A stretch of DNA of 64,000 nt from assembly GCA_001244265.2 (NCBI GenBank), contig CDLV01000005.1:310001-374000 (forward strand). Direction: 5' to 3'. The translations under genes and the position numbers were made by a program. The DNA comes from Microbotryum violaceum (Eukaryota). Shown here in pieces: positions 9,529-29,700 of this stretch (position 1 is the first letter of the stretch; each line of letters opens with the position of its first letter). A model generated the notes under the pieces. It saw nothing but the letters and a program-made list of their open reading frames with translations, did no database searches and had not been told where the DNA came from.

Positions 9529-11718
9529 CTAGTGCTTCGGAGGCGGAATCGCAATCACCACGAGGTTGACGACCATCGCAAAGATGCCCGAGATCCACCA
9601 CGCAGCGGCATAGCCTTGTTGAGGGTGGAAGCGGAACATTAACGCGTAGATGATGCCGCCCAAGTTGCCGGCCGCCCCGACGATACCAGTGATGATGCCG
9701 TTCGAATAGGGGACGCAGTGAGGTACCAAACTAAAGTTGAGGCCGTTGGCCATCTCGTTGAAGATAGCCATCACGACGATCAGACCGATCTGGAAGCCCA
9801 AAGAAGGGCCCTTCTTGTTGCCGTGGGTGAAGGCGTGCAGAGTGTGAAGACCGTAGGCGAGCGAGACGACACCTTGGAGGAAACCGCACGTCAAGGTCGC
9901 GTACTTCTTGCCCTGGGGGCCCCATCGTTTGCCGATCATGTCACCGAGGATACCACCCAGAGGTCGAGTCCAGACGTTGAGGAAGCCGAAGATCGAAGCG
10001 TAGTAACCGGCCTTGAGTTGACCAAAGCTAGGAGACTTGTGAACGGCAAACAGGACGTTGGCCAGGTTGGCATCGACAGCGAGTTCGAACCCGAATGTCG
10101 TCATGTACATGATGGAAGGCAGCCAAGTGTAAGGGGTCGTCGCGATCTTGAGCGTACCGGCGATGGAAGGCTTTTCCGCGACGGCAACGTCAATATCATG
10201 CAGTTGCTCGGCGACATCGTCATCGACGGCTTCTTGCACGGTCACCTTTGCCGCCTCCTTATCAGACATCTTTTGCTCGGCGATGCGTCGTTGACTCGCA
10301 TCGAGTGTGGTGAGGTGGCCGCGGGACATGGCGATGGAGCTTGCGGGCATGGTATGGCGCTCGGACCACTTGCCGGCCGGGCAATCGGTACCAAACACGA
10401 GGCAGAGGATGGCAACGAAGATGAGGATCGGGCAGGGAACGATCGCGAAGGCTGCGCGCCACGCCGAGTGCGACGAGAGACCGTCGTTGAGGAGGGCCTG
10501 GAAGAGAGCCACTTGGACCACAAAGGTGACACCACCTCCGAGATTACCTGTTGTAGCGAGGAAAAGCATCAGTAAACCGTATGCTCAACTGTTTTCGCGT
10601 TCGAGGGCGTTCTGAACCGACCCCAACCACCGGTGAAGGCGTTCGCAGTGCCAACGACGTTCTTGTCAAACATTGCCGTAGTCCAGGCTTGGCACGGCAC
10701 GAAAGTGGCACCAAGAATACCGATGAAGAAGCGGATGATGTAAAGACCTTTGTAATCGGTGATGGTACCGGCAAGACCCGAGGGGATCGCACCCAGAAGG
10801 AGGAGAGCGGCCATGACTTTTCGGGGTCCAAATCGATCGACGAAAGGTCCCATAATCAATCGAACACCTGAGCGAGACGGAAAAAACCAACCATTAGTTT
10901 GGTAGTCCTCAGTGGTATCATGGCTTCGCCAACTCACCAAGCGTGGACGCGAGGGCGGTGATGTTGGAGTTGCCGATCTGGGCGGTCGTGAGCTTGAGAT
11001 CGGTTTTGATGGCCTGTGTGATCAAATAGGGGGGTGCAAGCAGTCAGCTACTGGAGGCGCACCAATTAGACTTCAGCCAACACCACCTTCTGAATGCTTA
11101 CTTCGGGGATCAGAGGCGGGAAAGCGAACCAGGACAAGAAGGCGACGAAGAAGCCCAGCCAAGAGAGATGGAAGTTGCGCGTGTAGGGGTTCGCGAGGTC
11201 TGCACGGCCGATTCCATTTTCCAATCAGCGCTCGGTCCATGCGGCTAACGGGTCAGTAAAAGACGACCTACTGAACATAGGAAGGGTTTGAGATTTTCCA
11301 TTCAGAGGATTGACCTGAAGAGGAGATGATTGAAAAAATCAGCGTGCGTTGATCGGAGGCTGAGCACTGAAAACCGTAGGACCGAAGGAAGCTATTTCCG
11401 CCTCCTTTCCGCCCCCAAGTCCAAACTCGAGGCCCGTGCGTGGCCAGCTCGGAAATGGGAAATGACAGCCGACGGATCACTATATCGACTAAGGCGACGT
11501 GACGACGTGGCCGTGCCGCAGGGAATGGGATAGGTCAGGTAATTACTCACGACAGGCTTCTCCCACAAAGAAGCGATCCTGAACGAGGGAGGTTCGTTGT
11601 AGTTGAGCGTCGCATTGTTGGAGTTGACGCCTTTGGCCGCCTCGACGACGCCTTGGCTATCAAAGTGCGCGCTCGATGCGGACGATGAGACTTCCTTTTC
11701 ACGAACGATGGTCGACAT
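9529..11718 (-). CDS. NRT2: High-affinity nitrate transporter (MFS, NNP/NRT2 family)
   Basis: Motifs [56 protein letters not shown], nitrate signatures [16 protein letters not shown] and [22 protein letters not shown] and [10 protein letters not shown]. Multi-intron gene; ATG at 11718. Confidence 0.96.
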
Positions 11719-11889
11719 GATGACAAATCTTGAGTAGTAAGGGATACAGTTGACTGCCAAGACCGGTGTTGGAACAAGATGATGTGAAGAAAAGGAAGAG
11801 ACTAGGAGAGGGTGTGGAGCAGTGCAAGGTCTGCGATGGGTTGGTTTGGGATCAAAGGAGACGGGCGACGGTCGCTAACTGGTCGAACC

Positions 11890-12151
11890 GATAGAGCCCG
11901 CTATCGCAGATAGTCTAGGATAGTCGGGCGGGCCAGGCCAGACCTGGGTGATAAAGAGACCGCGAGCGTTTTACCTATCGACCGCGGTGATTGTCTCGGA
12001 TAGTGGGCTTTTCATTGATGCGCACCGATCCTGAGAGTGGTCCAGATTCAGATTCCGGCCTATCACATTTCTACCATTTGGATCGAGCCGACACGGACTC
12101 CGGACCCTTGTCAGTAGAGCGAGCTTGTGCCAGCGCAGCCCGACCTTTATC
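11890..12151. promoter_or_regulatory. Cluster of GATAR sites (AreA/Nit2-type nitrogen-regulation elements) upstream of NRT2
   Basis: GATAR/YTATC at about 11890, 11901, 11909, 11919, 11950, 11975, 11999, 12060 and 12147: nine sites in ~260 bp. Confidence 0.8.
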
Positions 12152-12232
12152 AGGCGCGCGCGCTCGCCAAGTCCGACACGGAACACGGAAGTGCGACGCA
12201 CAGCGGGGTCGTGTCGGGTCGCGCCGAAACGG
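12088..12232. promoter_or_regulatory. Three CCGA[A/C]ACGG everted-CGG motifs (putative Zn2Cys6 binding sites) in the NRT2 promoter
   Basis: CCGACACGG at 12088-12096 and 12173-12181; CCGAAACGG at 12224-12232; variant CCGAAGCGG at 12311-12319. The same motif occurs three times in the NiR/NR promoter. Confidence 0.7.
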
Positions 12233-12578
12233 AGGACCCTGCAGCAAGCTTTCTTGATCGTGATGATGTAAAGGCCCAGTAATTTCCTCCACTTACTCCA
12301 TGGGTTCAAACCGAAGCGGTCTTGACCACTCTCGGCCGGCGGTTCCGGCCAAGTTGGCTTTTTCACGGGCAAGTTTGGAACAGCGAGCGATGTTGAATTG
12401 AACAAGGAAGAGGAAGAAAGAATGCGACCAGGGTCTGAAATCCAAAGAAAAAACACGAGAGAGTAGAAACCCAATGTTTACACAGCCAATATTTCGACAG
12501 GTTCCCCACTAGACCAAGATCCGTAGAGCTTTCGCCAGCCACCACTTTGATGTACCCGCGGCGCGCATCCACCCCAAT

Positions 12579-15037
12579 TTACCTGGCCGCTTCAGAACCG
12601 AACATCAAATCGCGTTCCAAGTCATTCTTAGGCACTTCCTCATCGTGCGAGAAGGGTCGGTAGGATTGGACCGCCTCGGCGCCACCGGGGGATTGGAGAA
12701 TCTCCTCGCGGGAAGGAACGGGCAAGGCCGCGCTATCCTGTCGACGGGGAGCAGTGCCTTCGGTGCGAGTAGCGGGTTGAGCAGAGGGACGAACCTGGGT
12801 ACAAGGGTGGGTTGGGATAATAAGTCAGCCAACTATACGGTGAACTCAGGGCGTCACGGATGCAGCGAGGCCCCAGACACGAGCTAACCCAGGCTTTGAA
12901 ACTCACCATTCGCCTGAAGTTCTCTACCTCCTCGACAATCAAGGCCCGCATACCCTCAACCGAGTCTTCCTTCTCGAAGCCAAAGTCGAACTTCTGCGGG
13001 CACACGGGCTCGTCGCTCGGTTCGTGCCAAACGGCGAGGTAAGGGTGACGCAGGGCGTCCTCGCACGAGATGCGCTCGGTCGGGTCGAAGGCGAGCAACT
13101 TGGAGAGCATGTCGAGCGCCAAAGGGTTGGCATCGGGGAAGAGCTGCTCGAAAGGGACACCGTTCTTGTACGGCAAAGAGCGGATATAGTCTTGCGCCTG
13201 TCAGTTTGCGTGGGGTGTGATTCAGGGTCAGTCTCGGAGGACACGGGCTGGTCTCAGATAGGAAGACGGTTCGTACCCTGGGACTTCCGACTCGGCGGAG
13301 AGTGCGATCACTCGGCGTTCCGAGGAAATGGAGGACAATGTTGAGTTGATCGATGTAGTCCTTGCCCTTGAAGATGGGTCGACCACCGAGGAGCTCAGCG
13401 AGCACGCAACCAATACTCCAGACGTCGACTGCAAAGATAGTGGAAATCAATCACAGTCAGACACTGTCATCCACACGGCCAAAGAGACCGTACTGAAGAC
13501 TCAACTGGCTGTGGTGTAGTTGGCGAACGAGAGCATGATCTCGGGCGCACGGTACCAACGCGTAGCAACATACCTGTGCGGAGTGCATCACGACGTCAGT
13601 ATACAGCCGACGATAGCATCACGTCATCACTCACTCGGTCATGAACCCAGCGGCACCTTGCGCCGCCAACTCGGGGTCGGTCTCGAAACCACGGGCCAAA
13701 CCGAAATCGCAAATCTTGAGCTCGCAGTCGGCATTGACCTGTGGAGCGATGAGATGGTACTGTTCAGTGGTCCGGCTGAACGTAGTGTATTATGCTCGGT
13801 GTGTGAGCTTACGAGAAGGTTCCCTGGCTTGAGATCACGGTGCAAGACGTGCGCCGAGTGGATGTACTAGTAAAAGGGTAGACAGGCAAGAATGATCAAC
13901 TCGGTGTCAAGAGATCTCCTGCTGATAGCGTACACCGCGACGCACCTTGAGACCGCAGAGGGTTTGGTAGATGAAACTCTGGAAATGTGCATCCGAAAGG
14001 GGTTGTCCCGAACGAATCTAAAGACCATGACAGAAGCCAGTGAGTCCTCGGATTGCCGCGCAGTCGGACGTCTCGGAGTGTGAGACTCACGATGGCGTGC
14101 AAATCGGCTTCCATCAACTCCTCGTACAGGTAGCTGTGGTACCAGAGAGGGAAGAGTCAATATCAGATCGAGCTCTGCGATAGGTCTCGGCTTCATCAAC
14201 CTACACCGAGTCGAATCCGACGGGGTCGACGAGATCCATGTCATAAAGGCACGTGATCTAACAGCGGAACGACGGCCACAGTCAGTCTACGGTGCTCGGC
14301 TAAGGCGCAGACGACTGCACCTTTGACCCACGTTCTTGTGGCCCCGGAAATGATGCAGGAGCCTGTTGATTGGGGCACGTGATGGCAGAATATCAGCTCC
14401 TTTACGCAACTATCGACTCGGGCGGATCTCGGATTTTGAGGAAACTGACTTCAACTCTCGCAAGGCGCGCTTGGTAAGGATCTTCTTCTGGAAAACTTTG
14501 GTGACCTAGTGTATCGATGTGGAGACGGGCGCGGGTGAGTTCCGGAAACTGGTTGCCGCATGCACAGCTCCTATTCGTTTGATCTAGACGAGCGGGTTGA
14601 GGGCTGACCTTTTTGATGGCGACGGATTCGCCGGTCACGGTGCTCTTGGCCGAGCAGACGACACCATAAGCACCTGTGGATGGATCGGACATCATGATCA
14701 ATAGGTATTGCTTTTTGGGTCCGATTCGGCGACTGTGAGGCTGGGCAAGGCGGGGCTCGGCAAGGTAAGTGGGGTGCACAAGGCACGACCTCTTACCCCG
14801 CCTCTCATCCTTAACGTGACTCGAGAGGTGTCGTAGGTGGTTTGGCGGTCATTCCTGTTCGGTATGCTTGCAGCCCAAGAAGTGCGCGCATACGGTCCAA
14901 AGATGAAGCTTACCCTGGCCCAATTCCTTGACGAACTCGTAGGTGCTGTCGACGAGGAACGACTCGCTCAGGACGGGGAACGCGTGGCGCTGCACGCGGT
15001 GCACCGACGAGGCATGGCTGTTGGCTGCGGACGACAT
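12579..15037 (-). CDS. MPK1: Cell-wall-integrity MAP kinase (Slt2/Mpk1 type, TEY)
   Basis: Motifs [76 protein letters not shown] and [18 protein letters not shown]. The last exon ends ...[12 protein letters not shown] (TAA at 12579-12581). Confidence 0.93.
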
Positions 15038-17789: not shown

Positions 17790-20700
17790 TCACCCCCTCC
17801 AGTCCCAAATCGGGCCTCCAGCACCACCGCCGCCACCACCGCCGCCACCACCACCGCCACCACCACCGCCACCACCACCGCCACTGTTTATCCCACGCGA
17901 CACGCTGTACATACCCTCAGAATTTGGTCCGGTTTTGAGCTGCTGACTAGACACATGAAGATTGGGATCGAACGGCATCGTCGACGCCCATGCAGCAGGG
18001 TGGAAGCCACCGGTCGCAAAGTTCGTGAACGTCGCGAGCGACGGTACACCGTCATTAGCCGCACCCGTCAGAAACATGGATGGATCAAAGGCCTGGTGCA
18101 TCGTGTTGGGGAGCGATGTGGAGCCGTTCAACTGAGGCTGTTGGAGGCGATGATCGGTGAATGCCAAAGGCGAGGACGCGAAAGCTGCGGAAACGGATGA
18201 TGGTGGAGCCGTTGATGACGAGAACGGTGCAGGCGACCTGAAAGAGGCGTCGAACATGGCTTCGTACGACGTCTCGTCGAGATAGGTGGGTTGAGTTGCA
18301 GGTACGAGGACCGGCGAGTCGAACGGGGTGTAAAGTTCTCTCGCTGCGCTGGCCACATGATCACCTTGGGGCATCGCGCGTGGGGATAGAGGGGGTAGGA
18401 CCGTGGCGTTCACCCGTGGAAGTTGGTTGGCGTGTGTCGGGTGATTCGGTTGACTCGCCGTAGGGGACGGTGTTTCCACCGCCGAAGCCCCCGATCGACG
18501 CTTGGGCTTGCGATTTAGTCGAGTCGTCGTACCCAGAATCGACAACTCCGCATCCGTCCCCTTTCCTTTTGCGAGGTAGTCGCTAACTTGAGTCCGAGGT
18601 ATACCGGCCGGAACCGAGTGGGCGGCCTGCAGACTCTCAAAGGCGGCGTCCCGCAGAGCGTGAAGACGAGGGACAAACATCGCCACGGGGGCACCTCCGC
18701 CCGCCGCCGTCTCAAAGACGTCGATCGCAATCATGAGCTGCGTCCACGAATGCCGAGCCAATTTGGAATTGGGCGATTGAATCACGATAGAGGACTGGGC
18801 ACAGGCCGCCGCGAATGCCTGCGAGAATTCAGCAGATGCGGTCAGCGCCAGATCGCCGTCCAACCTTTCCCATGTGATTTCACTCACATGAAAGGTCGGA
18901 TGCCACCAACGAGGAGCAAGGGTCGGATGGAGATTGACCCACGCTCGGGCGATGGCCAGCATGTAAACTCCAGTCTCAAGGGCGACGACAGCGACTGATT
19001 CGGCCCACGGGGACAACAAGGGCTCGTCCGGGAACAGCTTCAAGGCTTGACGTAGCGCCGGCAGGTGGAGATAGAAGAAGATCTGCGAATAGATCATATC
19101 AAGCGTGTGTTGCCGCATGCGAGTCTTGAGCGGCGCAGACGAGGCTACAGGTTCAGGCAATTCGGGAGGGTCGCTCGGCCGAACGACGAAAGCGTCCATT
19201 GGCAAAGCACCAGAGCGCAGATCTTTGGGCGACTCTTCAAACATTTTGCGCAATTCCTGGTCCAATGCCAGCACGGTGGAGTATGCCGGGCTGACGACAG
19301 AGAAGCATTCGTCGATGACCCTCGCAATAAAGTTTCCCGTGCGCCACTTGTCGACATGATACGGTTCAGCCGATGAGGGGAACTTGGTGTCGAAATGATT
19401 CGGTGACATCATATATGGCCGACCGCTGATGAAAGCTTGCATCCGCTCAAGGGTTATGAGCTCGTAGAACGTCATTCTGCGACGTGACAGTCAACACTCC
19501 AGTCAGTCTAGTCCACACAGTGACCAAGTGGCAGACACCAATACAGCTCACCTTCTCTTGTCAAGCTCTGCCCCGTCCATTCCCCATTGACTCCCATCGC
19601 GATGAAGGCCCATGGCGACGAGCATCCGAAGAGCCATCCCGAGCAACGGGAAAAACGTCTCCCCGCCCTCCTGCAAATCGTGTGTATTTAATAGGAACGA
19701 GGCCGTGAGTTGCAGTGTTTGAACGCCGGCAAGAGTATTGTTGCTCAGAAACTTGGAAGCCGAAAGCGCCGATTGCGACAGCTGGAAGTAGTGGTGGGCT
19801 AGCGCGTTCGGTGTCGACGGGACACGTGGATCCATCAGGGAGCCGAGGGAGAGGACGATGAAGACGAAGGCGAGCTTTGTGCCAGCCGAGTTTCCCGTGG
19901 TCAATGCGGCGGGGAGATAATCATTGAAGAATGCCTCTTCTTCAACGGGCTCGAACTGAAAAGAGAGAAATTCGTAATAGTTCTTCACAAGTTGCTTGAG
20001 TTCGGCCGCGGCTGGAAGGAACGCTCTCAATCGCTCGAGCTCGTGGGTCCGCGAGTAGTAGGCGTGGAGCTGGATGAAGGGTGCTCGCACCTCTTGCGAA
20101 GCACGTTCGGGTGACGATGCGCTATCCGACTCATCTGAGCTGCCACCATCGTCCTGTTTCAGAAGGATCCGAAGGAGAGAGTGAGTTTTAAAGGTGCAGG
20201 CGTCGCCCGCAGTCGAAGAATGGTGGGGCTCCCGGCCTGATGGGCATTCACCTCAAAGTAGTACGCAGGACCGGCAGACGTTCCCAAGTACCTCACTCGG
20301 CCATCGTCTTCCCGAATCGACAACGAGCCAACGCCTGGCAACACAGCCTCGACCCCTGCCGCCTCGATATGTGTTTCGGATGCCCTCGAGCCGCCAAAAT
20401 CGTCCATCGTGTCGTCCCCTTCGCCATCGGCTTCGGTCGCATTCGAATTTTTGTTCAGGCTCCTTCCAGTGAACTCGAGTGTGAGCGGAGAAGGGATCCG
20501 GTCTGTGGCCCCGACGTCTTGGAGAGCGGCCTCGAGGTCCTCGCACCGCTTGAGCAAGGCGTTCATCTCGGCGTTGAGTCGGATTGCCCGCCCCGGGGGC
20601 TTGGAGACGCCGTGACTGCACCGAAAAGTAAAACATGAGCCGTACTGATGCTTGAAAGTGCGAACAAAAGTGTCCGAGCTCGACCGAGCGCTGGTGGCCC

Positions 20701-21178
20701 AATTCCAAGCTCGATGAAGATGTGGAATTGGATCTACATGGAGGTGTGGAGGGCTGCCAGCCGACTTACGGGCATAGATCTGCGCGCCCCCGCTTGCGGC
20801 ATTGGTTGCATGGCCACACCCGGTCGCACTTGAGCTTGAGCCTGGATCATTCAAAGTGGAAGGGGGCTCAACTCCAACTCGAGACGAAAGGAGCCATGCA
20901 TAGCCCCTGTAAACTGGTCCACACGCGCTGCCAGAGCCAGAGCCAGAGCTGGAGCAAATGATAAGCTCGCGAGAGGAGCCACCGCCGCGAGGAACGTACC
21001 TGCGGCATTCCTGACAGGACATGTGCGTCTTGGAGCGCTTGGATGACTTGCTGATGGCGGCTGCTGAGCCTGATCCTGAGCCGAGTGGGCTGTGGAGCGG
21101 CTCATCCGCCGGCGACGGGAGCACCGACGCTGCCGACGTCGAAGTCGAGCCCGAGGCCGGTGGTAGGCCAAACTCCAT
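17790..21178 (-). CDS. Zn(II)2Cys6 fungal transcription factor with middle homology region
   Basis: Spliced cluster SKRSKTHMSCQECRR|LKLKCDRVWPCNQCRKRGCADLCP|HG is followed by a coiled coil (EMNALLKRCEDLEAAL). The fungal-specific TF motif ALRMLVAMGLHRDGSQW...ELDKRR is present, then a Pro/Ser-rich tail and a poly-Gly run. Confidence 0.93.
17824..17883 (-). repeat. Imperfect (GGT/GGC)20 trinucleotide repeat encoding poly-glycine
   Basis: On the + strand, ccaccgccgccaccaccgccgcc... In frame in the last TF exon: NS-G20-AGGPIWDWRG*. Confidence 0.9.
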
Positions 21179-22028
21179 ACAGACGATCAGACGTCAATGC
21201 GTCAATCACGGGGCCACGACAACGGGTTCGATTCGGGATCAACGACCGCAGCAGCTAGGGGGTCGAGCCTGGTGCAGGTGCTGCCGCGGCTCGAGCAATC
21301 TAGTCAAGGGGGCAATTCTGACCGCGGAAATGGTCACGGGGTCGAGAAGCAACTCCGCCGGGAGTTCAAGAACGTTCAGGGCTGGCAGCTGTCTCGGAAG
21401 GTGGGCAAGACGGTTTCGATCGGGGCCACTGGAAGCGTCAAGAGCGCCGGGTGAATGGGCTTAGCGCAAACTCTTCTTGATTTTCTAATAACGTGGCAGC
21501 TCGCCCCACAAAGGTGAGCAGTTGCGCAATTTATGGCGCACAGACCAAAAGTGCCAAAGCTGCCGACCCCTCGGACCCGCTCAGACCATTTTCCAGACCG
21601 ATCTCAGACCGAATCAGAGCATTCCAGAGGGAATTTTGACCATTCTGGTGGATCTCAGCGGCACTCAGGAGCTCAGGAGGGAACGAACATTCAACAGAAA
21701 TATGTATGGAAAAATTTGACGGGAGCGTTTGGTATATGCTGTAGTACCTTCAAGATGCTGGTTCAGGCGGTGTCAGACCGCATCCGTCTGAGCGCCGCTC
21801 TTCAACAGACTGATCATGAGGGCGTCCGACTTAAGAGGTCTGATGATTCACTCGTTTCTAGACAGTTTCACTAGGTAGGAGGGTAGGACTGCAATTACAC
21901 GATACAAATATGGAAAAAATGATCTAAGAACAAAGTAAATTGTAACCCAAGGAAGAAGTACATGCTCAAACACACAGATGGAACAAAATTCAATGTCTAT
22001 ATTGAAAGAGTCTGCGCCGCTGGCTCGT

Positions 22029-25000
22029 TCACCACTCCAGTTTGTTCGAGCCACATCCACTACCGTTCTCGTGCTTGATCGCACAGTCATTACTAGCCGC
22101 TAATCTTTCCTCATCCAACTCTCCTGAAGGTCCCACAATCTCGATCGCCGTAGCCGAGTTCCGTCCCAGCGCCTCGGCCGTCGCCTTGCGGACCATCCAT
22201 TTGGTCGAGCCGATCAGCGCGTCGAGCTCCTCGGCGGGGGGCAATTTGACGAACAAATCCTCGCCTTCGTTCTTGACCTCGAACGCGAGCACCTTGTATT
22301 CTTCGTCGTTTGTGCATTCTCCCGTGTCGAGGCGGAAGTTGCGTTTGTGCAGCGGGCACGAGACGTAGAGGTTGCCATTGGCGTCTAGCGTCGGATGAAG
22401 ACTTCCCGTCAGCGAATATTCGGCATATGCACAGCAAGTATTAAACCCACTCACCATCTCCGATGATACCGTGTTCGAGTACAAAAGCACGCTTGTGAGG
22501 GCACATTTGCTGTGTAGCGAAATAGCCTCGTTTGGGAACGTGGAAAATTGCGAGCTGGGTGTCTTGCCCATATCGAACCGCCGCACTCCTGTTCGGGGTC
22601 ACAAAGCCGAGGTCGAGAATCACGTTCGTTTTAGACATCACATTCACCTAGTGATTCGTTCCCGAAGTGGAAACTTAGGTACAATCACTCACGTTGTGTT
22701 GGCCTCTGTGGGCATGAGGTCCTGCGTCGTAGCAAGATTGACCCACTCCCATTCCGAGCGAGGGGTCGGCACCTCGTTGTCCTCGAATCGCTTGGCGGGA
22801 AAGTTCTTGGGCCAGTCGGCGGGTCGATTCTGACCACGCTCGGTAATCGGCTCAATCCCGACGCGCCTCTCGTCGGTGTTGGCGAATTGCTTGAAGGACT
22901 TGCGCAGTTCGGGATGGGTGATAGCCGCAGCCCATTCGTCCTTGTAAGTGCCGATAAGCGCGTCCATCTCTCGGTCCAAGTCACCGCAGATGCCAAGCTC
23001 ATCGTCGAGGAGAATCTTCTTGAGCTTTTCGATACCTCCATCAAATTTTTCGACCCAGGGTGCCGTGCGCACCAAACGATCGGCGGTACGGATGTAGAAC
23101 ATGAGGAAGCGATCGATGATGCGAACGACCTTGGTCGGCGGGACATCCTTGGCGAACAGATGGGCATGGCGAGGATTAGCTCCACCATTTCCACCAATAA
23201 AGACTGCATATTTTGGTGAGACAGGTCTCATTAATTCGAATAGATCATTAGGACAAGTCTTCGGATCGGGGAACTCACCATTCCATCCTTTGTCGGTTGC
23301 GATGAGGCCAAAGTCCTTTGACTGGGCCTCGGCGCACTCGCGCACACATCCACTGACTCCTCCCTTGAACTTGTGGGGCGATCGCACACCTCGGTAGCGG
23401 TTCTCAAGGTCGATCGCAAGTCCGACCGAATCCCCGACACCATAGCGGCACCAGGTGGTTCCCACACACGACTTGACTGTTCGCAGTGATTTACCGTATG
23501 CGTGACCCGACTCGAAACCAGCGGCGATCAGCTTCTCCCAGATGTCGGGCAAGTCGCGCTTCTGTGCACCGAAGAGGTCGATACGCTGGCCACCGGTGAT
23601 CTTAGTATATAGTCCATACTCCTTGGCGACCTGACCCAAAGCGATCAACTTCTCGGGCGTCACTTCACCACCGGCCATGCGCGGCACGACGGAGAAGGTG
23701 CCGTTGCGTTGGATATTGGCCAAGAAACGATCGTTGGTATCCTGAAGACCATGATGTTGCGGTAGCATGACGTGTTCGTTGTAGAGCGAGGAGAGAATCG
23801 ATGCGACAGCGGGCTTGCAAATCTCGCACCCCTGACGATCCTTGCCCGCACCGACCGTTGCGATAATGGTTGCAAAGTCGCGCAGCTGCTTGATCTTGAC
23901 CACTTGGAAAAGATCGGTACGGCCCATCTTGAAGTGGGTGCAGAGGTCGTTGTTGGCCGCGTGACCGGCTTTCTTCATTTCGGCCTTGAAGATGCTCGTC
24001 GCGAGTGGGACGCAGCCACCGCAGCCCGCGCCCACCTTGGTCTTGGACTTCAGCGTCGCAAAGTCAGTGCACCCGTCTTTGATACAAGCTCCGATGGCAC
24101 CCTTGAGCACATTCTGTATTGTAACATTGAAATACAAAATGTATCAGTTGGGATGCTGTCTGGCTAGCTGATATAGCTAGGTACTGACATGGCAGGAGCA
24201 GATTTGCGCATCATCGTCCAGATCGGCACCATCATCCTCGCCTTCCTTCTTGGCGCCCATGATGAACTCGGACGGGGGGCAATCGAGCTTCTTCTTCTTC
24301 TTGACGATTGAGACCATCTTGGTGAAGGAAGCGACGTCGCCGATCATGATCCCGCCGAGTAGATGGGTGCCATCGGCCGTGAAAATGTACTTCTTGTACG
24401 TCGACGAAAAGGGATCGTGGTAGGTCAAGCATTTGATGGGATCGTTCTTGGTGTCTCGAGGCCCTTTCTTTCGTCGACTAGGCTTGCTCGAAGCAATTTC
24501 GACACCCACCTCGACCTTTTTCTTCTCGGCAGCCTCGATGTCCTTGACCATGCGCTCGTCCGCAAAGTAGTCACCGAAAGAAGCGACGTCGACACCCATC
24601 AGCTTGAGCTTGGTGGAGAGATCGGGATCGTTCATCTTTCGAGGCGCATGGCCCGCTGTTTGAGTCTGTTGAACCGAACCGAATTGTGACAGTGAGCAAC
24701 TGGCACTGGTATCAAGTGACTCCGAAAGGAGCTTACGAGGTTGAATGCCAGAATATCGGCCATCTCCACCCCGGGGGCGATCAGGCCATAAGTCTTCCAA
24801 CAGGAAGCGATGTCAGTACCAAGTCACAAGGTTCGCATCGAAAACTACCCAGGATATCACTCACATTGCCTCTCCAGCTGGCGCATTCACCGATAGCGTA
24901 GATGTCTTGCTCGCTGGTCATCAAGTCGTCGCCAACGTCTATACCCCCTCTTCGTGCGCACCGAATCCCGCTCGCTGCGGCAAGGTCGTCCCGCGACTTG

Positions 25001-25974
25001 ATTCCGATAGCAAAGATCGTCAAGTCACTCTCAATGTGCTCGCCGTCACTTGTGGTGAAACCAGTGAAGACCTCTTGACCATTCTCGTCGGTCCGGGTTG
25101 TGATCGCTTGGGGTTCGCACTGTGTCAGGACTTTGACCCCCATGTTTTCAATCTTGCGCAGCACCAACTCGCCCGCAGAAGGATCGAGCTGACGATTCAA
25201 GGGGTAGTTCTGGCGGATCAAGATGGAGACGTCGGGAACACCGGGCATATCGTACACTGCCTTGGCGGCCTCGAGACCAAGTAGACCACCTCCGACGACC
25301 GAAGCCCGACTGATGTGGGGCAACTCGGCGTAGTCCATGATCGACTCGAGGTCGGCGATGTTGCGGTAGACAAACACACCGGTCGTCTTCTCGGCTTGCT
25401 CGATCGAGACGTAGGGTGGGAGACCTGCTCCAGAGCCGGTGGCGAGGACGAGGATGTTGTACGAAAAGGTGTTACCCCGGGACGTGCTGACCGTCTTGGA
25501 CTTTGAGTCGATCAAAGTGACTTGTTCCCCAACGTGGAAGGCGAATCGATCGGGTTCTTGTTCCGCGTACCAATTCGGGTCATTCAGGTACAGATCTTCA
25601 ACGTTGCGGTGTTGAAAATACTCGGTCAGCCCGACTCGGTTGTAGGCCAGGTGCTTCTCCTCGCCACAGGTTCGGATGAAGTAGCGCTTGTCTTGATCAA
25701 GATTGAGCACTTTTTCAATGAAGGCTGTGAAGGAGGTTGCGCAACAGAGTCAATACAAGGCCCTCTTCACTCCAGCACTTCGGATCTCGTGGTCCGATGC
25801 CGTTATGCGACCGAGATTTCACTGTCACTCGGCGACTTTCGAGGCTTTGGACCGGGTGGGGCACAGGAGGAGCTAGTACGACTTACCAATGCCAACCATG
25901 CCGAGTCCGACCACAAAAATCTGGATCCTGTTCGTCTTGGGGACATGGGTCGTGGAATTTGCGATTGGGACCAT
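22029..25974 (-). CDS. niiA: Assimilatory NAD(P)H nitrite reductase (FAD, [2Fe-2S], siroheme-[4Fe-4S], C-terminal Rieske-like domain)
   Basis: Motifs FVVGLGMVG, LAYNRVGLTEYF, VVGGGLLGLEAA, ICSCHNV, GAGCGGCVP, GCEICKP, TVKSCVGTTWCRYG, GGVSGCVRECAEAQ and Rieske QQMCPHKRAF...SCPLHKRNF. ATG at 25974 (MVPIANST). Confidence 0.97.
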
Positions 25975-26718
25975 CTTTTCGAGCGAGCTGGTAAGAGGTC
26001 GGGTACTGGCGGTCGGTGGTTGCTCGGCCCTGACCGTGCGCGCTTATCACCAAAGAGGTCTGTGCGGGAGAACGGAGTTGGGTGATCCGAGATTCAAGTA
26101 ATCGATGCGGTAAGAAGGCAAGCAAGCGCGGCCTGAAGTATGGTGCGATTTAGTGATTTGATGAGTTGCAACTTGTTGCGGTGAGTGGAAGACGAGAGGA
26201 GTGGTCGGGATAGCGGAGTAGCGATAGCCTCGGCGAGCTCGGCCAAGCCACGACCAGGGAAGCGATAGAGCCGACACGGGCTAGCGAGAAGTGCCGATGG
26301 GGTTTAAGCGATGATTTGAGCGAGAGCTGATTCGCTAGTGGGCCTAAGGCCGTGTCGGAGCTCTGCGACGGCGAGGCGAACGCGGGTCGAGGCCCGGACC
26401 CCGCCTTATCAGACGCGAAGATAGTGCTGATTGCGCCGACCTCCGAAACGGAGATCATCAGGCGTTTCGAGTGGGCTCCTGCACGGGTGTCCTTTTTATC
26501 AGAAACGGCTCGCTAGCGTTTGCGAGGTGTTGATGTGGAAGAATAGATTTGGCGATAGACTCGCGCAACGCCTCTATCGCATCCAATCGCCTTCCACCCT
26601 TATGTCTCTGACGATCGTGACAAGGTGATCCTCCACCTGGCACCCCTTCTTCAACACTCGGATCCCCTGCCTACACAGAATATCTCGAGGAATTGACCTT
26701 GTTCGAATTCGCTGCAAG
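25975..26718. promoter_or_regulatory. Divergent NiR/NR promoter with GATAR cluster and three CCGA[A/C]ACGG motifs
   Basis: GATAR/YTATC at about 26045, 26209, 26223, 26264, 26407, 26420, 26497, 26554 and 26575. CCGACACGG at 26271-26279, CCGTGTCGG (reverse) at 26350-26358, and CTCCGAAACGGAG at 26441-26453. Confidence 0.82.
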
Positions 26719-29700
26719 ATGAGCTCGGCGAGTTTGTCTTCCCTTACCTCGAGCGACTCGGAGGACCTTCAATCGCAAGGCTCGGCGGCTTCGACCGCGC
26801 CGACGAGTCTAGCCGCCACACCCGCGCCATCGTCGCCCAAGCAGAGTTCCAACGCTCTCAGCTTTACCGAATGCCGCACATCGGCACCAAAGGAGCCCGA
26901 CCATTTCAACTCGCTCCCATCCCCCTTTTATCCGGCATCACTCCTTTCGGCCGATGAGAAGCAGGAGCATCTCTTGCCCGCGTTGCCTTTGGAGTACCCT
27001 GCGTTGCCGGCAACGACGAGACCGGAGCAACCCTGCGACGCCGACAGGGGGACACCGGACGAGTGGATCGTGCGTGACGAGAAGCTGGTGCGATTGACGG
27101 GCAAGTGGCCCTTCAACTGCGAACCTCCTTTGCCTGATCTATGGAAGTCGGTGAGTTTTCAGAGATCACGTCTGACCTAACCTTCACAACGACTAGGGCG
27201 GGGACTGCCCGATGGGCGGGCCATTCAAGTCGCTGACCATTCTGAAACCGTTGATGCACACTCGCAGGGATTCTTGACATCGACGAGGTTGTTCTACGTC
27301 CGCAACCACGGAGTGGTGCCCAAAGTCTCGAGGCAAGATGCTGAAGCGTGGACGTTTGATATCGGAGGGTAAGTCGGAAGTCTTGGGCCTTTGCGTCGGA
27401 CTGATGCGGTAGGGACTAAAGGCTGACATGGGGTTGGGTCACATTTTCTTCTTGTCGCGCACGCGCACGATACAGCCTCGTCAAGCGCCCCTGCACATTA
27501 TCCCTCGCCGACTTGCTCGATCCCTCTCGTTTCAATGCGGTAACCCTTCCTGTGACGCTGGTCTGCGCCGGCAACCGACGCAAGGAGCAGAACGTCGTTC
27601 GCAAGTCGCTCGGCTTCTCCTGGGGGGCGGCTGGCCTCTCGACAGCGCTGTTCACCGGTGTCTACTTGGCGGATGTACTTGACTACGTCTGCCCCCAAAA
27701 CGAAGGCAAGATCGGCCAACCTGGCTTCAAGCGCGCCGAGCATGTCATCTTTGAGGGGGCCGAGAACCTGCCGAACGGCAAATACGGAACGTCCCAGCGT
27801 CTGAGGTGGGCAAGGCTTCGGGAGAAGGGGATGATGCTGGCATGGGCCATGAACGGAGAGGTGCATCTTTCACAATAGAGAATTCCACCCTCTTCGACTT
27901 AATACTGACCGGTCTTGTCATGTTTTCACGTTAGGCACTCGAGCCTGATCATGGCTACCCGCTTCGACTTCTTGTGCCGGGCCAAATCGGGGGTCGAAGT
28001 GTCAAGTGGCTCAAAAAAATCATCGTCAGCGACAAGGAGAGCGATCATCACCTGCATTACTGGGACAACAAGGTCCTGCCCACCACCTTGATGCCTGAGC
28101 AAGCGAGAAGTGAGCGACAGTGGTGGTATGATCCTCGGTGAGTGACTCGCGCCGCATGCTCTACAGCCAGAATATCGCAAAGAGTTGCTGACCCAGCCCC
28201 GATGCCCCCAGATACATCATCAATGACCTCAACACCAACTCGGCGGTCGCTTGCCCCGCCCACGACGAGCAGCTCGTCGTTCCAGTTCCAACCGAGGCGA
28301 ACCCCTCTCCGACTTACACCGTCCAGGGCTACGCATACGCAGGCGGTGGACGTCGCGTCACTCGCATGGAGATTACCCTCGACGACGGCGACACCTGGTC
28401 TCTTTGCGACATTCGATACCCGGAGGACGACTACCGTCAGATGCCCTTCTCGGCACCCGTCTGGGGCACGTTGGACATCACTGATCGAGATGAATGCTTC
28501 TGCTGGGCTTTCTGGAAGATCGAGATCCCCATCGAGAAGCTCAAGGACGCCACCTCGATCGCTATCCGAGGTATGGATGAGGGTCTGAACTTGCAAGGGA
28601 AAACAATGTACTGGAAGTGAGTCGGATGGTTTCGGAACTGTTCAAACACTTCCCGAATGGTGAATGCTGACACCCCCTCCTTCTCTATCATCTTGCTCAC
28701 CAGCCCCACTGGTATGATGGTAAGTCCAGAGGTTTGTCTCCCATTGTTCTCTCGGAATTTATCATTGACATATCTATCGTACTCTTGGATCACAGAACAA
28801 CTGCTGGTTCAGGGTCGTGATTCACTCCTCAATGTCCGAAACCGGCGAAACAGTTCTTCGATTTGAGCACCCGACCATGCCGGGTTCGCAACCCGGAGGA
28901 TGGATGGAGCGAATGAAAGATAACGGCGAGGATATTCTTCGACCCCAGTTTGGTGTCGTACCCACAGGAGAAGAGAGTGAAATCCTCTTGCAGTCAAAAG
29001 AGTCGGCCAAGCTGAAGAAATCGACCGTCGTCATGACCAAGGAGGGCGTCACTCGCAAGATCACGATGACCGAGGTGCAGGCTCACAACAAGGAGAGCGA
29101 ACCTTGGTTCGTCGTCAAGGGCGAGGTGTACGATGGCACGGGCTTCCTTGCCAAGCACCCGGGTGGCGCGGAATCGATCACGCTCGTCGCCGGCGAGGAT
29201 GCCACTGAAGACTTTACGGCCATCCATTCCATTGTAAGGCGACGCGAGATAGGGCATCTGGTAGACGTGAGCTAATGCAGATAGTGTTCCACCCGTAGGA
29301 CGCAAAAGCACAACTTGCCGACTATCACATTGGCACGCTCGTCGTTGAGGAAGCCCCCTCCGCGGTTGTGCCCTCCACACCTACCCTCCCCGATCCTATC
29401 TTTCTCAACAAGTCCAAGTGGAAAGCTGCAACGCTGATCTCGATTGAGAAGCTCAACCATGACTCGCGCAACTACCGCTTTGCGCTGGAGTACCCTGAAC
29501 AGCAGCTCGGCTTGCCAACGGGGCAACACGTTTACGCTCGCTTGCGCCGGAAGGTCTCGCCGAGCGACGCCGAGGACAAAGGTGGTGTACCGATCGTCGA
29601 GGGCGAGCTCGTGCAACGTGCCTACACGCCGGTGTCATCGAACACTGCTCAAGGCTTCTTGGACCTTTTGATCAAGGTCTACTTCCGCACGCCCGACTTC

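What the first reader, a model, noticed from the sequence alone, without database searches (positions are those of the whole stretch)
17790..21178. Zn2Cys6 factor directly downstream of nitrite reductase: candidate pathway-specific nitrate regulator
Seen in the sequence: a complete Zn2Cys6 plus middle-homology TF starts 850 bp downstream of NiR on the same strand, between NiR/NR and NRT2. Established: ascomycetes induce nitrate genes through Zn2Cys6 proteins (NirA, NIT4, and the clustered Yna1/Yna2) together with GATA factors. To my knowledge no equivalent regulator has been clearly defined for the basidiomycete nitrate clusters. Inference: this TF binds CCGA[A/C]ACGG, giving a self-contained GATA + Zn2Cys6 nitrate regulon that may be unrelated to NirA.
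Basis: partly seen in the sequence, partly recalled or inferred. Interest (0 to 1): 0.78.

Follow-up and report, generated by a model that had tools for sequence, protein, structure and literature searches.

The report
Zinc-cluster regulator gene beside nitrate genes
A fungal zinc-cluster transcription-factor gene sits right next to the nitrate-assimilation genes of an anther-smut fungus and many related red yeasts, which makes it a good, testable candidate for the unidentified nitrate switch of basidiomycetes, but nothing yet shows that it controls those genes.

Summary
Window 17790-21178 (- strand) is a six-exon gene for a 944-aa Zn2Cys6 + Fungal_trans protein. It starts 850 nt downstream of nitrite reductase (NiR), between NiR/NR and an NRT2-type transporter. 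The window is from a Microbotryum species.

- **Motif.** CCGA[A/C]ACGG is real. Six of its 7 exact hits in 64 kb lie in the NiR-NR intergenic region (3) and upstream of NRT2 (3); 1.8 hits are expected. Both regions also carry the two densest GATA clusters of the window.
- **Linkage.** By locus-tag numbers, orthologues lie within 1-3 gene models of NiR in 13 of 22 Microbotryomycete species. They lie 20-37 genes away in 4 species and on other contigs in 5.
- **Expression.** The gene is transcribed and spliced. Unlike NR/NiR/NRT2, it is not in the published list of differentially expressed genes.
- **NirA.** A published survey finds no NirA orthologue in Basidiomycota, and no NirA- or NIT4-type sites lie in these promoters.

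Evidence against: no binding or genetic data exist. The gene belongs to a large uncharacterised family. One species (S. blumeae) keeps it although NR and NiR are scored absent. Co-loss could not be tested.

I put about 0.5 on it being the pathway-specific nitrate activator. It would be a new member of a known kind: a cluster-linked Zn2Cys6 regulator.

The parts
17790..21178 (-). Zn2Cys6 + Fungal_trans transcription-factor gene, six exons, 944 aa. Equivalent to MVLG_00639 in M. lychnidis-dioicae.
   Evidence: ORFs and translations. Splice sites read. Model built and compared with P0004. Orthologue list. MVLG_00639 is annotated Fungal_trans between NiR and NRT2 (Perlin 2015, supplementary file 2).
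20772..21016 (-). Zinc-cluster DNA-binding motif, Cys55 to Cys83, split by intron 1 (20842-20999).
   Evidence: Cys spacing C-X2-C-X6-C-X5-C-X2-C-X8-C read. Pfam Zn_clus 20.6 bits in P0004, 27.4 and 23.8 bits in orthologues. Hap1 DNA-binding domain E 4.8e-8, Cep3 1.3e-4.
20510..20590 (-). Predicted coiled-coil dimerisation element (residues 93-119), 13 residues after the last Cys.
   Evidence: Hydrophobic residues L97, M101, L104, C108, L111, L115 and V118 are spaced 4-3-4-3-4-3, read. R107, L111 and E112 are invariant, and E100 and L104 nearly invariant, in 13 orthologues. Dimerisation itself was not tested.
19365..19985 (-). Fungal_trans (middle homology) domain, spanning intron 4 (19477-19551).
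   Evidence: PF04082 at 3.9e-12 on exon 4. 2.6e-17 on residues 262-443 of P0004.
18819..18887 (-). In-frame 69-nt intron 5 (GTGAGT..TCGCAG), retained as 23 aa in the public M. silenes-dioicae protein model.
   Evidence: Sequence. The 23 residues are absent from 12 of 13 aligned orthologues. Spliced RNA contigs of three runs of a close relative all end a piece at 18817 (table 8; 1-nt ambiguity because G flanks both sides). The joint itself was among rows not shown.
21179..22028 (.). NiR 3' flank and regulator 5' flank, 850 nt, without nitrate-type cis elements.
   Evidence: No match to CCGAMACGG at up to 1 mismatch and no HGATAR site.
22029..25974 (-). NAD(P)H nitrite reductase gene.
   Evidence: Pfam NIR_SIR, NIR_SIR_ferr, Fer2_BFD, Pyr_redox_2, Rubredoxin_C and Rieske_2. 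99% identity to BQ5605_C016g08108. ATG located.
26719..30308 (+). Nitrate reductase gene, divergent from NiR.
   Evidence: Pfam Oxidored_molyb, Mo-co_dimer, Cyt-b5, FAD_binding_6 and NAD_binding_1. First in-frame ATG found. tblastn with the R. toruloides NR.
9529..11718 (-). NRT2-type (NNP/NarK) nitrate/nitrite transporter gene.
   Evidence: MFS_1. TIGR00886 at 1.1e-51 and 5.1e-31 on two exon pieces. ATG located. Spliced RNA contigs.
26271..26279 (+). Motif copy CCGACACGG in the NiR-NR intergenic region.
26350..26358 (-). Motif copy CCGACACGG (context CTCCGACACGG) in the NiR-NR intergenic region.
26443..26451 (+). Motif copy CCGAAACGG inside the 13-nt palindrome CTCCGAAACGGAG.
12088..12096 (+). 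Motif copy CCGACACGG, 370 nt upstream of the NRT2 ATG.
12173..12181 (+). Motif copy CCGACACGG upstream of NRT2.
12224..12232 (+). Motif copy CCGAAACGG (context CCGAAACGGAGG) upstream of NRT2.
25975..26718 (.). Divergent NiR-NR promoter, 744 nt, with a GATA-site cluster.
   Evidence: 8 HGATAR in 25950-26700 (10.7 per kb) against 1.5 per kb for the window. One of the two richest 600-nt windows of the 64 kb. GCGATAG is the top shared 7-mer.
11719..12700 (.). NRT2 upstream region with a GATA-site cluster.
   Evidence: 7 HGATAR (7.1 per kb). The other richest 600-nt window.

Best explanation
The gene encodes a steadily expressed Zn2Cys6 activator that is the pathway-specific regulator of nitrate assimilation in Microbotryomycetes. 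It would play the role of NirA/NIT4 and Yna1/Yna2 without being related to them by orthology. Proposed mechanism: two subunits pair through the short coiled coil behind the zinc cluster. Each zinc cluster reads one CGG/CCG triplet of the near-palindromic element (T/C)CCG-A(A/C)A-CGG. That element occurs three times in the divergent NiR-NR promoter and three times upstream of NRT2. The regulator then acts together with a GATA factor bound to the dense GATA clusters in the same promoters. Because its mRNA hardly changes and its own promoter lacks both elements, nitrate would control it after transcription, through localisation, DNA binding or activity. Shown here: gene structure, domains, transcription and splicing, motif and GATA enrichment, and recurrent linkage to NiR. 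Inferred: dimerisation, binding to this motif, activation and nitrate sensing.
For: (1) Position: 850 nt from NiR on the same strand, inside NRT2...NiR/NR. (2) Recurrent linkage, from NCBI locus-tag numbers and equal contig lengths plus MVLG numbers. Of 22 species with both genes identified, 13 have the regulator within 1-3 gene models of NiR: four Microbotryum species, S. johnsonii, six Rhodotorula species, and Rhodosporidiobolus azoricus and microsporus. Four have it 20-37 models away on the same contig. (3) The orthogroup of 26 rows (SH-aLRT 99) follows the species groups, with a separate paralogue clade, so these are orthologues. (4) Bulk synteny does not explain the linkage. The R. toruloides neighbours of NR (Josephin) and of the regulator (ATM1), and a neighbour of the regulator in Rsp. 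nylandii (P0230), have no homologue in this 64-kb window, whereas the regulator, NiR and NR do. (5) Cis elements: CCGAMACGG has 7 hits against 1.83 expected, and 0 of 100 shuffles reach 7. Six of the 7 lie in the two nitrate promoters. An unbiased k-mer scan ranks CCGACACG first among shared 8-mers, with 5 copies in the promoters and 1 elsewhere. Paired CCG/CGG triplets are the classic Zn2Cys6 target (established knowledge). (6) A specific inducer is needed. In M. lychnidis-dioicae, NRT2/NiR/NR read 7.8/16.3/30.0 in planta, 0.71/1.18/4.85 on water agar and 0.15/0.84/4.19 on rich medium, so starvation alone does not induce them (Perlin 2015, supplementary file 15, rows seen). The R. toruloides NAR1 promoter was used on nitrate medium without ammonium (induced) against ammonium medium (repressed) (Johns 2016, passages). 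(7) No NirA orthologue in any Basidiomycota column of Todd 2014, so the role is vacant. (8) Expression: spliced RNA contigs of a close relative cover the gene at depths 217, 309 and 257. NRT2, NiR and NR swing 6- to 13-fold between the same three runs. Contig depth is a poor measure.
Against: No binding, knockout or localisation data exist for this protein or any orthologue in what I could search. Adjacency is the only link between this particular Zn2Cys6 protein and the motif. The family is large: 5286 representatives at E<=1e-3 and 424 at E<=1e-30, and the genome surely encodes many other Zn2Cys6 proteins. Linkage is broken in 9 of 22 species. In 5 the genes are on different contigs: S. salmonicolor (three strains), Rsp. 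ruineniae, Rsp. lusitaniae and two Phenoliferia species. S. blumeae has an intact orthologue with an ordinary branch length (P0015), although NR and NiR are scored 0 in its genome (Table S4 of PMC12093110). That assembly is the least complete of the set (genome BUSCO 84.0%, 814 contigs). Two unnamed Microbotryomycetes (JL201, NB124-2) have orthologues, but their NiR was not among the 120 listed hits. The regulator's orthologue was not found for four NiR-positive species (R. kratochvilovae, R. sphaerocarpa, R. diobovata, R. taiwanensis). So my lists are incomplete and cannot carry a co-occurrence argument. Motif conservation in other species could not be checked because no fungal genomes are held. 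The generic pattern CCG-N3-CGG is not enriched (32 hits against 30.4 expected).
Confidence: 0.5

Rival explanations
1. Linkage without function. The regulator is an ancestral neighbour of the nitrate cluster and controls something else. The CCGA[A/C]ACGG boxes are read by a different, unlinked Zn2Cys6 (or other) protein.
For: The regulator is unlinked or 20-37 genes away in 9 of 22 species. S. blumeae keeps it although NR and NiR are scored absent. It is not co-regulated with NR/NiR/NRT2 (with caveats). It has no nitrate-type elements in its own promoter. The family is very large.
Against: Adjacency persists across Microbotryales and Sporidiobolales while other neighbours differ. Pathway regulators such as NirA are also steadily expressed (recalled knowledge), so flat mRNA is not evidence against a regulatory role. 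Several fungal nitrate clusters have independently taken in Zn2Cys6 regulators (Scazzocchio 2014, passages).
Confidence: 0.3
2. A broader or auxiliary nitrogen regulator. The protein acts on nitrate genes among many targets, or as a partner or repressor of another factor, as in the Yna1/Yna2 pair. It is not a dedicated, sufficient nitrate activator.
For: Retention in S. blumeae, where one NRT2-like gene remains. A sister paralogue clade exists in Sporidiobolales that could supply a heterodimer partner. Yna1 and Yna2 work only as a heterodimer (Silvestrini 2015, abstract).
Against: Nothing specific. The six motif copies are near-palindromic, which fits a homodimer as well. Only one window of the genome could be scanned, so other targets are unknown.
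Confidence: 0.15
3. It is the basidiomycete orthologue of NirA/NIT4.
For: Same domain architecture (Zn2Cys6 + Fungal_trans) and the same presumed role. Three of the six motif copies carry a CTCCG/CGGAG half-site, as do the NirA site CTCCGHGG and the Yna site CGGAGAATA quoted in Silvestrini 2015 (Discussion).
Against: Todd 2014 scores nirA (AN0098) orthologues 0 in every Basidiomycota column. The only ascomycete proteins reaching E<=1e-10 with the family profile score 1e-11 to 1e-15 and are unnamed C6 proteins, none called NirA. CTCCGHGG has 8 hits against 12 expected and none in the nitrate promoters. TCCGCGGA has 1 hit, elsewhere. No NirA or NIT4 sequence was available from any tool for a direct comparison.
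Confidence: 0.03

Closest known systems
NirA (Aspergillus nidulans) / NIT4 (Neurospora crassa), pathway-specific nitrate activators
   Same: Zn2Cys6 plus middle-homology architecture. Presumed co-operation with a GATA factor on a divergent NiR-NR promoter that carries several sites. Steady expression of the regulator gene (for NirA this is recalled, not checked here).
   Different: No orthology is detectable. Published survey: 0 in Basidiomycota. Ascomycete matches are remote and unnamed. The enriched element is CCG-A(A/C)A-CGG, not CTCCGHGG and not TCCGCGGA (that NIT4 site is recalled). nirA is not in the A. nidulans cluster (Scazzocchio 2014), whereas this gene is next to NiR.
Yna1 / Yna2 of Hansenula polymorpha (Ogataea), Zn2Cys6 regulators encoded inside the nitrate cluster
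   Same: A Zn2Cys6 regulator gene physically inside a nitrate cluster and not orthologous to NirA. This fits the pattern of repeated, independent recruitment noted for Pichia and Kuraishia (Scazzocchio 2014).
   Different: One gene here, not two. Yna1 activates YNA1 and YNA2 in a nitrate-dependent loop (abstract), whereas this gene is not in the differential-expression list and has no motif upstream. The Yna UAS is CGGAGAATA. No sequence comparison was possible.
Hap1 (S. cerevisiae) DNA-binding domain, the closest solved structure by sequence
   Same: The zinc cluster, linker and coiled coil align over about 73 profile positions at E 4.8e-8.
   Different: Hap1 is a heme-responsive regulator that binds direct CGG repeats (recalled). 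The resemblance covers only the DNA-binding module and says nothing about targets.
Uncharacterised basidiomycete Zn2Cys6 family, including a Sporidiobolales paralogue labelled 'C1F7.11c-like'
   Same: Full-length homology at E 1e-100 to 1e-60 in Mixia, rusts, Wallemia, Kwoniella, Phaffia, Dacryopinax and agarics.
   Different: None of these has a known function or, where it could be checked, linkage to NiR. In Mixia and K. heveanensis the genes are on different contigs. The NiR-linked orthogroup is confined to Microbotryomycetes in my sample.

Membership tests
Zn2Cys6 (Gal4-type) binuclear cluster transcription factors | Six cysteines spaced C-X2-C-X6-C-X5-12-C-X2-C-X6-8-C | tested here: met
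   C55-X2-C58-X6-C65-X5-C71-X2-C74-X8-C83, read and from the model. The canonical spacing range is recalled.
Zn2Cys6 (Gal4-type) binuclear cluster transcription factors | Match to Pfam PF00172 Zn_clus above the gathering score | tested here: inconclusive
   20.6 bits against a cut-off of 21 for P0004 (98% identical to the window protein). 27.4 and 23.8 bits for the R. toruloides and S. salmonicolor orthologues. The family profile matches the Hap1 DNA-binding domain at 4.8e-8.
Zn2Cys6 (Gal4-type) binuclear cluster transcription factors | Fungal_trans / middle homology region (PF04082) | tested here: met
   3.9e-12 on the exon-4 ORF. 2.6e-17 on P0004.
Zn2Cys6 (Gal4-type) binuclear cluster transcription factors | Coiled-coil dimerisation element after a short linker | tested here: met
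   Three heptads, residues 97-118, with 4-3 hydrophobic spacing, conserved in 13 orthologues. This is sequence pattern only. Dimer formation was not tested because the complex job was never accepted.
NirA/NIT4 orthogroup | Orthology by phylogeny or reciprocal best hits to AN0098 / NCU08294 | not testable with these tools
   No tool returned a NirA or NIT4 sequence. Indirect evidence: Todd 2014 lists 0 orthologues in all Basidiomycota columns, and the ascomycete hits are remote and unnamed.
NirA/NIT4 orthogroup | Target promoters carry CTCCGHGG (NirA) or TCCGCGGA (NIT4) sites | tested here: not met
   None in 25975-26718 or 11719-12700. Window-wide, 8 against 12 expected and 1 against 2.3 expected.
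Cluster-encoded pathway-specific regulator of nitrate assimilation (functional class: Yna1/Yna2-like) | Regulator gene lies inside or beside the NR/NiR/NRT2 cluster | tested here: met
   850 nt from NiR here. Within 1-3 gene models in 13 of 22 species.
Cluster-encoded pathway-specific regulator of nitrate assimilation (functional class: Yna1/Yna2-like) | Required for nitrate induction and binds the cluster promoters | not testable with these tools
   Needs a knockout and EMSA, ChIP or DAP-seq. Only a candidate cis element was found.
Cluster-encoded pathway-specific regulator of nitrate assimilation (functional class: Yna1/Yna2-like) | Nitrate-dependent auto-activation of the regulator gene (Yna1 feature) | tested here: not met
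   MVLG_00639 is absent from the differential-expression list that holds NR, NiR and NRT2. There is no motif or GATA site in its 850-nt upstream region. Contig depth is flat across three RNA runs (weak evidence).
Cluster-encoded pathway-specific regulator of nitrate assimilation (functional class: Yna1/Yna2-like) | Co-occurrence and co-loss with NR/NiR across species | tested here: inconclusive
   NR and NiR are absent in R. mucilaginosa, S. blumeae, S. carnicolor and S. pararoseus. The orthologue is seen in S. blumeae and not seen in the other three. It is also not seen in four NiR-positive species, so the hit lists are incomplete.

The most novel reading that the evidence does not exclude
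Microbotryomycetes recruited their own Zn2Cys6 lineage, unrelated by orthology to NirA/NIT4 and to Yna1/Yna2, as the nitrate-pathway activator, and kept its gene beside NiR for the whole history of the class. It reads a new nitrate element, (T/C)CCG-A(A/C)A-CGG, in triplicate in each nitrate promoter alongside GATA clusters. This would be a further independent case of a zinc-cluster factor being drawn into a nitrate cluster. It would also be the first pathway-specific nitrate regulator defined in any basidiomycete.
Probability: 0.4. Interest if true: 0.6.

Novelty: new member of a known kind. Interest (0 to 1): 0.45.

Why it matters
Nitrate-inducible promoters (nar1/NAR1) are standard tools in Ustilago and Rhodotorula. 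Yet in what I could search, the factor that senses nitrate in basidiomycetes has not been identified, and NirA has no orthologue there. This gene is a concrete candidate that can be deleted in a genetically tractable relative, R. toruloides. The six motif copies give defined probes for binding and promoter-mutation tests. If confirmed, it would show once more that nitrate clusters acquire regulators independently in different fungal lineages. In Microbotryum, NR, NiR and NRT2 are induced during infection (Perlin 2015), so the regulator would also bear on nitrogen sensing in planta. If refuted, it is an ordinary neighbouring transcription factor.

Tried and rejected
- **Whole genome of the window:** none is held, so genome-wide motif counts and a census of Zn2Cys6 genes were impossible.
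- **Synteny from DNA of other fungi:** no fungal genome collection is on hand. I used NCBI locus-tag numbers and contig lengths from protein searches instead. This assumes that tags run in order along contigs.
- **Metagenome scan with the family alignment:** it returned one locus, L001. This is a 37%-identical relative with no NiR, NR or NRT2 domains in 21 ORFs, so it was uninformative and dropped.
- **The look-up of sequencing runs:** no RNA holder is listed on record. Laying runs X1-X4 showed that X2-X4 consist of spliced contigs. X1 gave only short, low-depth pieces and was not used.
- **Complex prediction:** the job was two copies of the DNA-binding region, residues 44-135. It was never accepted because the queue was full. 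Dimerisation therefore remains an inference from the heptad pattern.
- **Protein Atlas:** it returned only generic Zn2Cys6 clusters.
- **Our earlier findings:** nothing was held.
- **Horst 2012 (U. maydis Nit2) by DOI:** the paper is not held. What I say about Ton1 or U. maydis would be recall, so I left it out of the argument.
- **Direct comparison with NirA, NIT4, Yna1 and Yna2:** no tool supplied these sequences, and I did not type any from memory.
- **Rejected idea, generic CCG-N3-CGG as the signal:** it is not enriched. Only the A(A/C)A-spacer version is enriched.
- **Rejected idea, co-loss from missing hits:** the orthologue was not seen in R. mucilaginosa, S. pararoseus or S. carnicolor. 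This does not show co-loss, because four NiR-positive species are also missing from the lists.


Full report
**What is there**

The window is eukaryotic, about 56% G+C throughout, with intron-split genes. On the - strand, three long ORFs at 17790-19490, 19548-20252 and 20159-21193 (translations) join through GT..AG introns that can be read directly in the sequence.

A script that joins the exons gives a 2835-nt CDS of six exons and 944 codons. The exons are 21000-21178, 20770-20841, 20252-20615, 19552-20153, 18888-19476 and 17790-18818. The introns are 158, 154, 98, 75 and 69 nt long.

The protein agrees with M. silenes-dioicae BQ5605_C016g08107 (P0004) at 930 positions. It has two substitutions, a Gly run 12 residues longer and one 23-residue gap. 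So the window comes from a Microbotryum species.

The 23-residue difference is the fifth intron (18819-18887, GTGAGT..TCGCAG). The public model reads through it in frame. Twelve of the 13 aligned orthologues lack those residues. Spliced RNA contigs of three runs from a close relative all end a piece at 18817. The joint row itself was among those not shown.

**Domains**

- Residues 55-83 carry six cysteines spaced C-X2-C-X6-C-X5-C-X2-C-X8-C, split between exons 1 and 2.
- Pfam Zn_clus scores 20.6 bits on P0004, just under the cut-off of 21. It scores 27.4 and 23.8 bits on the R. toruloides and S. salmonicolor orthologues.
- A profile of 13 orthologues matches the Hap1 DNA-binding domain at E 4.8e-8 and Cep3 at 1.3e-4 among solved structures.
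- Thirteen residues after the last cysteine, L97, M101, L104, C108, L111, L115 and V118 form three heptads with 4-3 spacing. Several of these positions are invariant in the family. This is the usual dimerisation coiled coil of this class.
- Fungal_trans (PF04082) scores 3.9e-12 on exon 4 alone and 2.6e-17 on P0004.
- The C-terminal third is low-complexity and ends in a conserved W-x-W patch.

**Surroundings**

NiR occupies 22029-25974 (-), NR 26719-30308 (+, divergent from NiR) and an NNP/NarK transporter 9529-11718 (-). The regulator's ATG (21178) lies 850 nt downstream of the NiR stop on the same strand.

Between the regulator and NRT2 lie a zuotin gene (+) and a kinase-like gene (-). In M. 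lychnidis-dioicae the same order is annotated as MVLG_00637 (NR), 00638 (NiR), 00639 (Fungal_trans protein) and 00642 (transporter) (Perlin 2015, main-text passage; supplementary file 2 rows).

**The cis elements**

- CCGA[A/C]ACGG occurs 7 times in the window against 1.83 expected, and none of 100 shuffles reaches 7.
- Three copies lie in the 744-nt NiR-NR intergenic region (26271 +, 26350 -, 26443 +).
- Three lie 370-514 nt upstream of the NRT2 ATG (12088, 12173, 12224).
- The seventh is inside a P-type ATPase gene (37465).
- The generic CCG-N3-CGG pattern is not enriched (32 hits against 30.4 expected), so the A(A/C)A spacer is part of the signal.
GATA-containing words (GCGATAG, CGATAGA) rank first among 7-mers.
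- HGATAR sites number 8 and 7 in the two regions (10.7 and 7.1 per kb) against 1.5 per kb overall. These are the two richest 600-nt windows of the whole 64 kb.
- The regulator's own 850-nt upstream region has no motif, even with one mismatch, and no HGATAR.
- NirA-type CTCCGHGG (consensus quoted in Silvestrini 2015) has 8 hits against 12 expected, none in the nitrate promoters.
- TCCGCGGA (the NIT4 site, recalled) has one hit, elsewhere.

**Relatives and linkage**

A search with exon 6 found 16 proteins at E<=1e-5. A search with the 13-sequence alignment found 45 at E<=1e-10.

A quick maximum-likelihood tree of 44 of these proteins gives the following picture:

- An orthogroup of 26 rows (SH-aLRT 99) is confined to Microbotryomycetes and arranged by genus.
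- A four-row Sporidiobolales paralogue clade is its sister.
- Mixia, two rusts, then Tremellomycetes and Wallemia lie further out.
- Four ascomycete proteins, on very long branches, were used as the outgroup.

A full HMMER scan finds 5286 representatives at E<=1e-3 and 424 at E<=1e-30. The nearest ones outside the class are all unnamed Zn2Cys6 proteins.

No fungal genomes are held, so I inferred linkage from NCBI locus-tag numbers and equal contig lengths. I matched the regulator hits to NiR hits. Twenty-two species have both genes identified.

| Separation from NiR | Species |
|---|---|
| 1 gene model | M. silenes-dioicae, M. saponariae, M. intermedium, M. lychnidis-dioicae, S. johnsonii (two strains) |
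| 2 gene models | R. babjevae, R. glutinis, R. graminis (two strains), R. dairenensis, R. araucariae, Rsp. azoricus, Rsp. microsporus |
| 3 gene models | R. pacifica |
| 19-20, same contig | R. toruloides |
| 22, same contig | Rsp. poonsookiae |
| 36-37, same contig | Rsp. odoratus, Rsp. nylandii |
| Different contigs | Rsp. ruineniae, Rsp. lusitaniae, S. salmonicolor (three strains), two Phenoliferia species (one with contigs too short to judge) |

The R. toruloides neighbours of NR (a Josephin protein) and of the regulator (ATM1), and a neighbour of the regulator in Rsp. nylandii (P0230), have no homologue in this window, while the regulator, NiR and NR do. So the association is not simply a large conserved block.

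**Co-occurrence**

Table S4 of the Sporidiobolales genome paper (PMC12093110; rows seen, main-text passages) covers 46 genomes. It scores NR and NiR absent in R. mucilaginosa, S. blumeae, S. carnicolor and both S. pararoseus strains, and present in the other 41.

My lists contain an intact orthologue from S. blumeae (P0015) and none from the other three species. They also lack the orthologue for four NiR-positive species: R. kratochvilovae, R. sphaerocarpa, R. diobovata and R. taiwanensis. Some 'v2' gene models fuse the regulator with ATM1 and exceed the search's length limit.

So a missing hit means little, and co-loss is untested. S. blumeae is a possible counter-example. Its assembly is the least complete of the set, with genome BUSCO 84.0% and 814 contigs, and NR and NiR are adjacent genes that a single gap could remove.

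**Expression**

Runs X2-X4 come from one study of a relative about 90-95% identical. Their contigs skip GT..AG introns in NRT2, zuotin and NR, so they are spliced RNA.

| Gene | Contig depth in X2 / X3 / X4 |
|---|---|
| Regulator (contigs of 2.4-2.8 kb) | 217 / 309 / 257 |
| Zuotin | 429 / 587 / 452 |
| NRT2 | 573 / 1574 / 120 |
| NiR | 403 / 760 / 87 |
| NR | 361 / 791 / 122 |

The tool warns that contig depth is a poor measure of expression, so I treat the flat profile of the regulator only as a hint.

Independent published data agree. In the differential-expression table of Perlin 2015 (supplementary file 15, rows seen):

| Gene | In planta | Water agar | Rich medium |
|---|---|---|---|
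| NRT2 | 7.8 | 0.71 | 0.15 |
| NiR | 16.3 | 1.18 | 0.84 |
| NR | 30.0 | 4.85 | 4.19 |

MVLG_00639 (the regulator) and MVLG_00640 (zuotin) do not appear in that table. Nutrient limitation alone does not induce the three structural genes, which argues for a specific inducer and hence a specific regulator. In R. toruloides the NAR1 promoter was used on nitrate medium without ammonium (induced) against ammonium medium (repressed), and 200 bp suffice for full regulation (Johns 2016, passages).

**How it most likely works**

The best reading (about 0.5) is that this is the pathway-specific nitrate activator of Microbotryomycetes. It would be a steadily expressed Zn2Cys6 homodimer that recognises the near-palindromic (T/C)CCG-A(A/C)A-CGG boxes, three per promoter. 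It would co-operate with a GATA factor and be switched by nitrate after transcription.

Shown here: the gene, its domains, its transcription and splicing, the enrichment of the two cis elements, and the recurrent linkage. Inferred: dimerisation, the match between this protein and this motif, activation and nitrate control.

The main rival (0.3) is that linkage is a historical accident and another factor reads the boxes. A broader or auxiliary role, possibly with the paralogue as partner as in Yna1/Yna2, gets 0.15. NirA orthology gets 0.03.

**Comparison with what is known**

By architecture and presumed role it works like NirA/NIT4. I do not file it with them, for three reasons. Todd 2014 scores nirA orthologues 0 in all Basidiomycota columns (supplementary files 6 and 7, rows seen). 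Ascomycete matches are remote and unnamed. NirA- and NIT4-type sites are absent from the promoters. A direct alignment with NirA, NIT4, Yna1 or Yna2 was not possible because no tool supplied those sequences.

In being encoded in the cluster it resembles Yna1/Yna2 of H. polymorpha and the two different cluster factors of Kuraishia (Scazzocchio 2014, passages; Silvestrini 2015, abstract and one Discussion passage). It lacks the Yna1 auto-activation loop.

A CTCCG/CGGAG half-site appears in three of the six boxes and also in the NirA and Yna sites. This may be convergence or chance.

**Novelty and verdict**

Ten full-text searches found no paper that defines a nitrate-specific regulator in a basidiomycete or mentions this gene family in that role. 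Subscription-only papers are not covered.

The finding is a well-founded candidate, not a demonstrated regulator. Its kind, a Zn2Cys6 gene beside the pathway it may control, is very familiar in fungi. I class it as a new member of a known kind, with interest 0.45. It would not greatly surprise a specialist. It does turn an open question into a simple knockout and gel-shift experiment.

Noticed in passing
window 18819-18887 (-): The public M. silenes-dioicae protein model (P0004) reads through a 69-nt in-frame intron, adding 23 residues that 12 of 13 aligned orthologues lack. The M. intermedium model removes a slightly different stretch and also keeps 8 extra residues at the intron-4 junction.
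   Followed up: yes
window about 17800-17880 (-): The regulator ends with a GGN-encoded glycine run 12 residues longer than in M. silenes-dioicae. Many RNA and DNA contigs of the laid runs break or run on unlike the window exactly here (loose ends at 17822-17876), so the repeat is length-variable or hard to assemble.
   Followed up: partly
window 25887-26492: In run X4 the contig that carries the NiR mRNA continues upstream to 26492, across all three motif copies and up to the start of the NR contigs (26482-26519). This could be a long NiR 5' leader, an upstream transcript, or an assembly merge of the two divergent mRNAs (table 8).
   Followed up: no
window 9529-11718, 22029-25974 and 26719-30308: Published data show NRT2, NiR and NR of M. 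lychnidis-dioicae induced in planta but not on water agar. The pathogen apparently meets an inducer, presumably nitrate, inside the host flower.
   Followed up: partly
window 37465-37473 (-): The only motif copy outside the nitrate promoters lies inside a P-type cation ATPase coding region (Pfam). It is probably a chance match.
   Followed up: no
window 11395-15457 (-) and 15604-17178 (+): A large kinase-like gene (only a short Pkinase match, 4.9e-5) and a zuotin (ZUO1-like) gene separate the regulator from NRT2. Their presence shows the cluster is interrupted by unrelated genes.
   Followed up: no
window 11314-11552 and 28616-28795: Two joints in the relative's RNA contigs have non-canonical ends (CT..CG; GT..CA with 15 other letters between). 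They probably reflect sequence divergence or replaced stretches in the relative, not unusual splicing (tables 5 and 5c).
   Followed up: no
R. toruloides and Rsp. nylandii orthologues (P0223, P0231): In the 'v2' annotations the regulator is fused with its neighbour (ATM1 in R. toruloides, 1818 aa; a 386-aa protein in Rsp. nylandii, 1546 aa). Such fused models fall outside length-limited searches and may explain missing orthologues in some species.
   Followed up: partly
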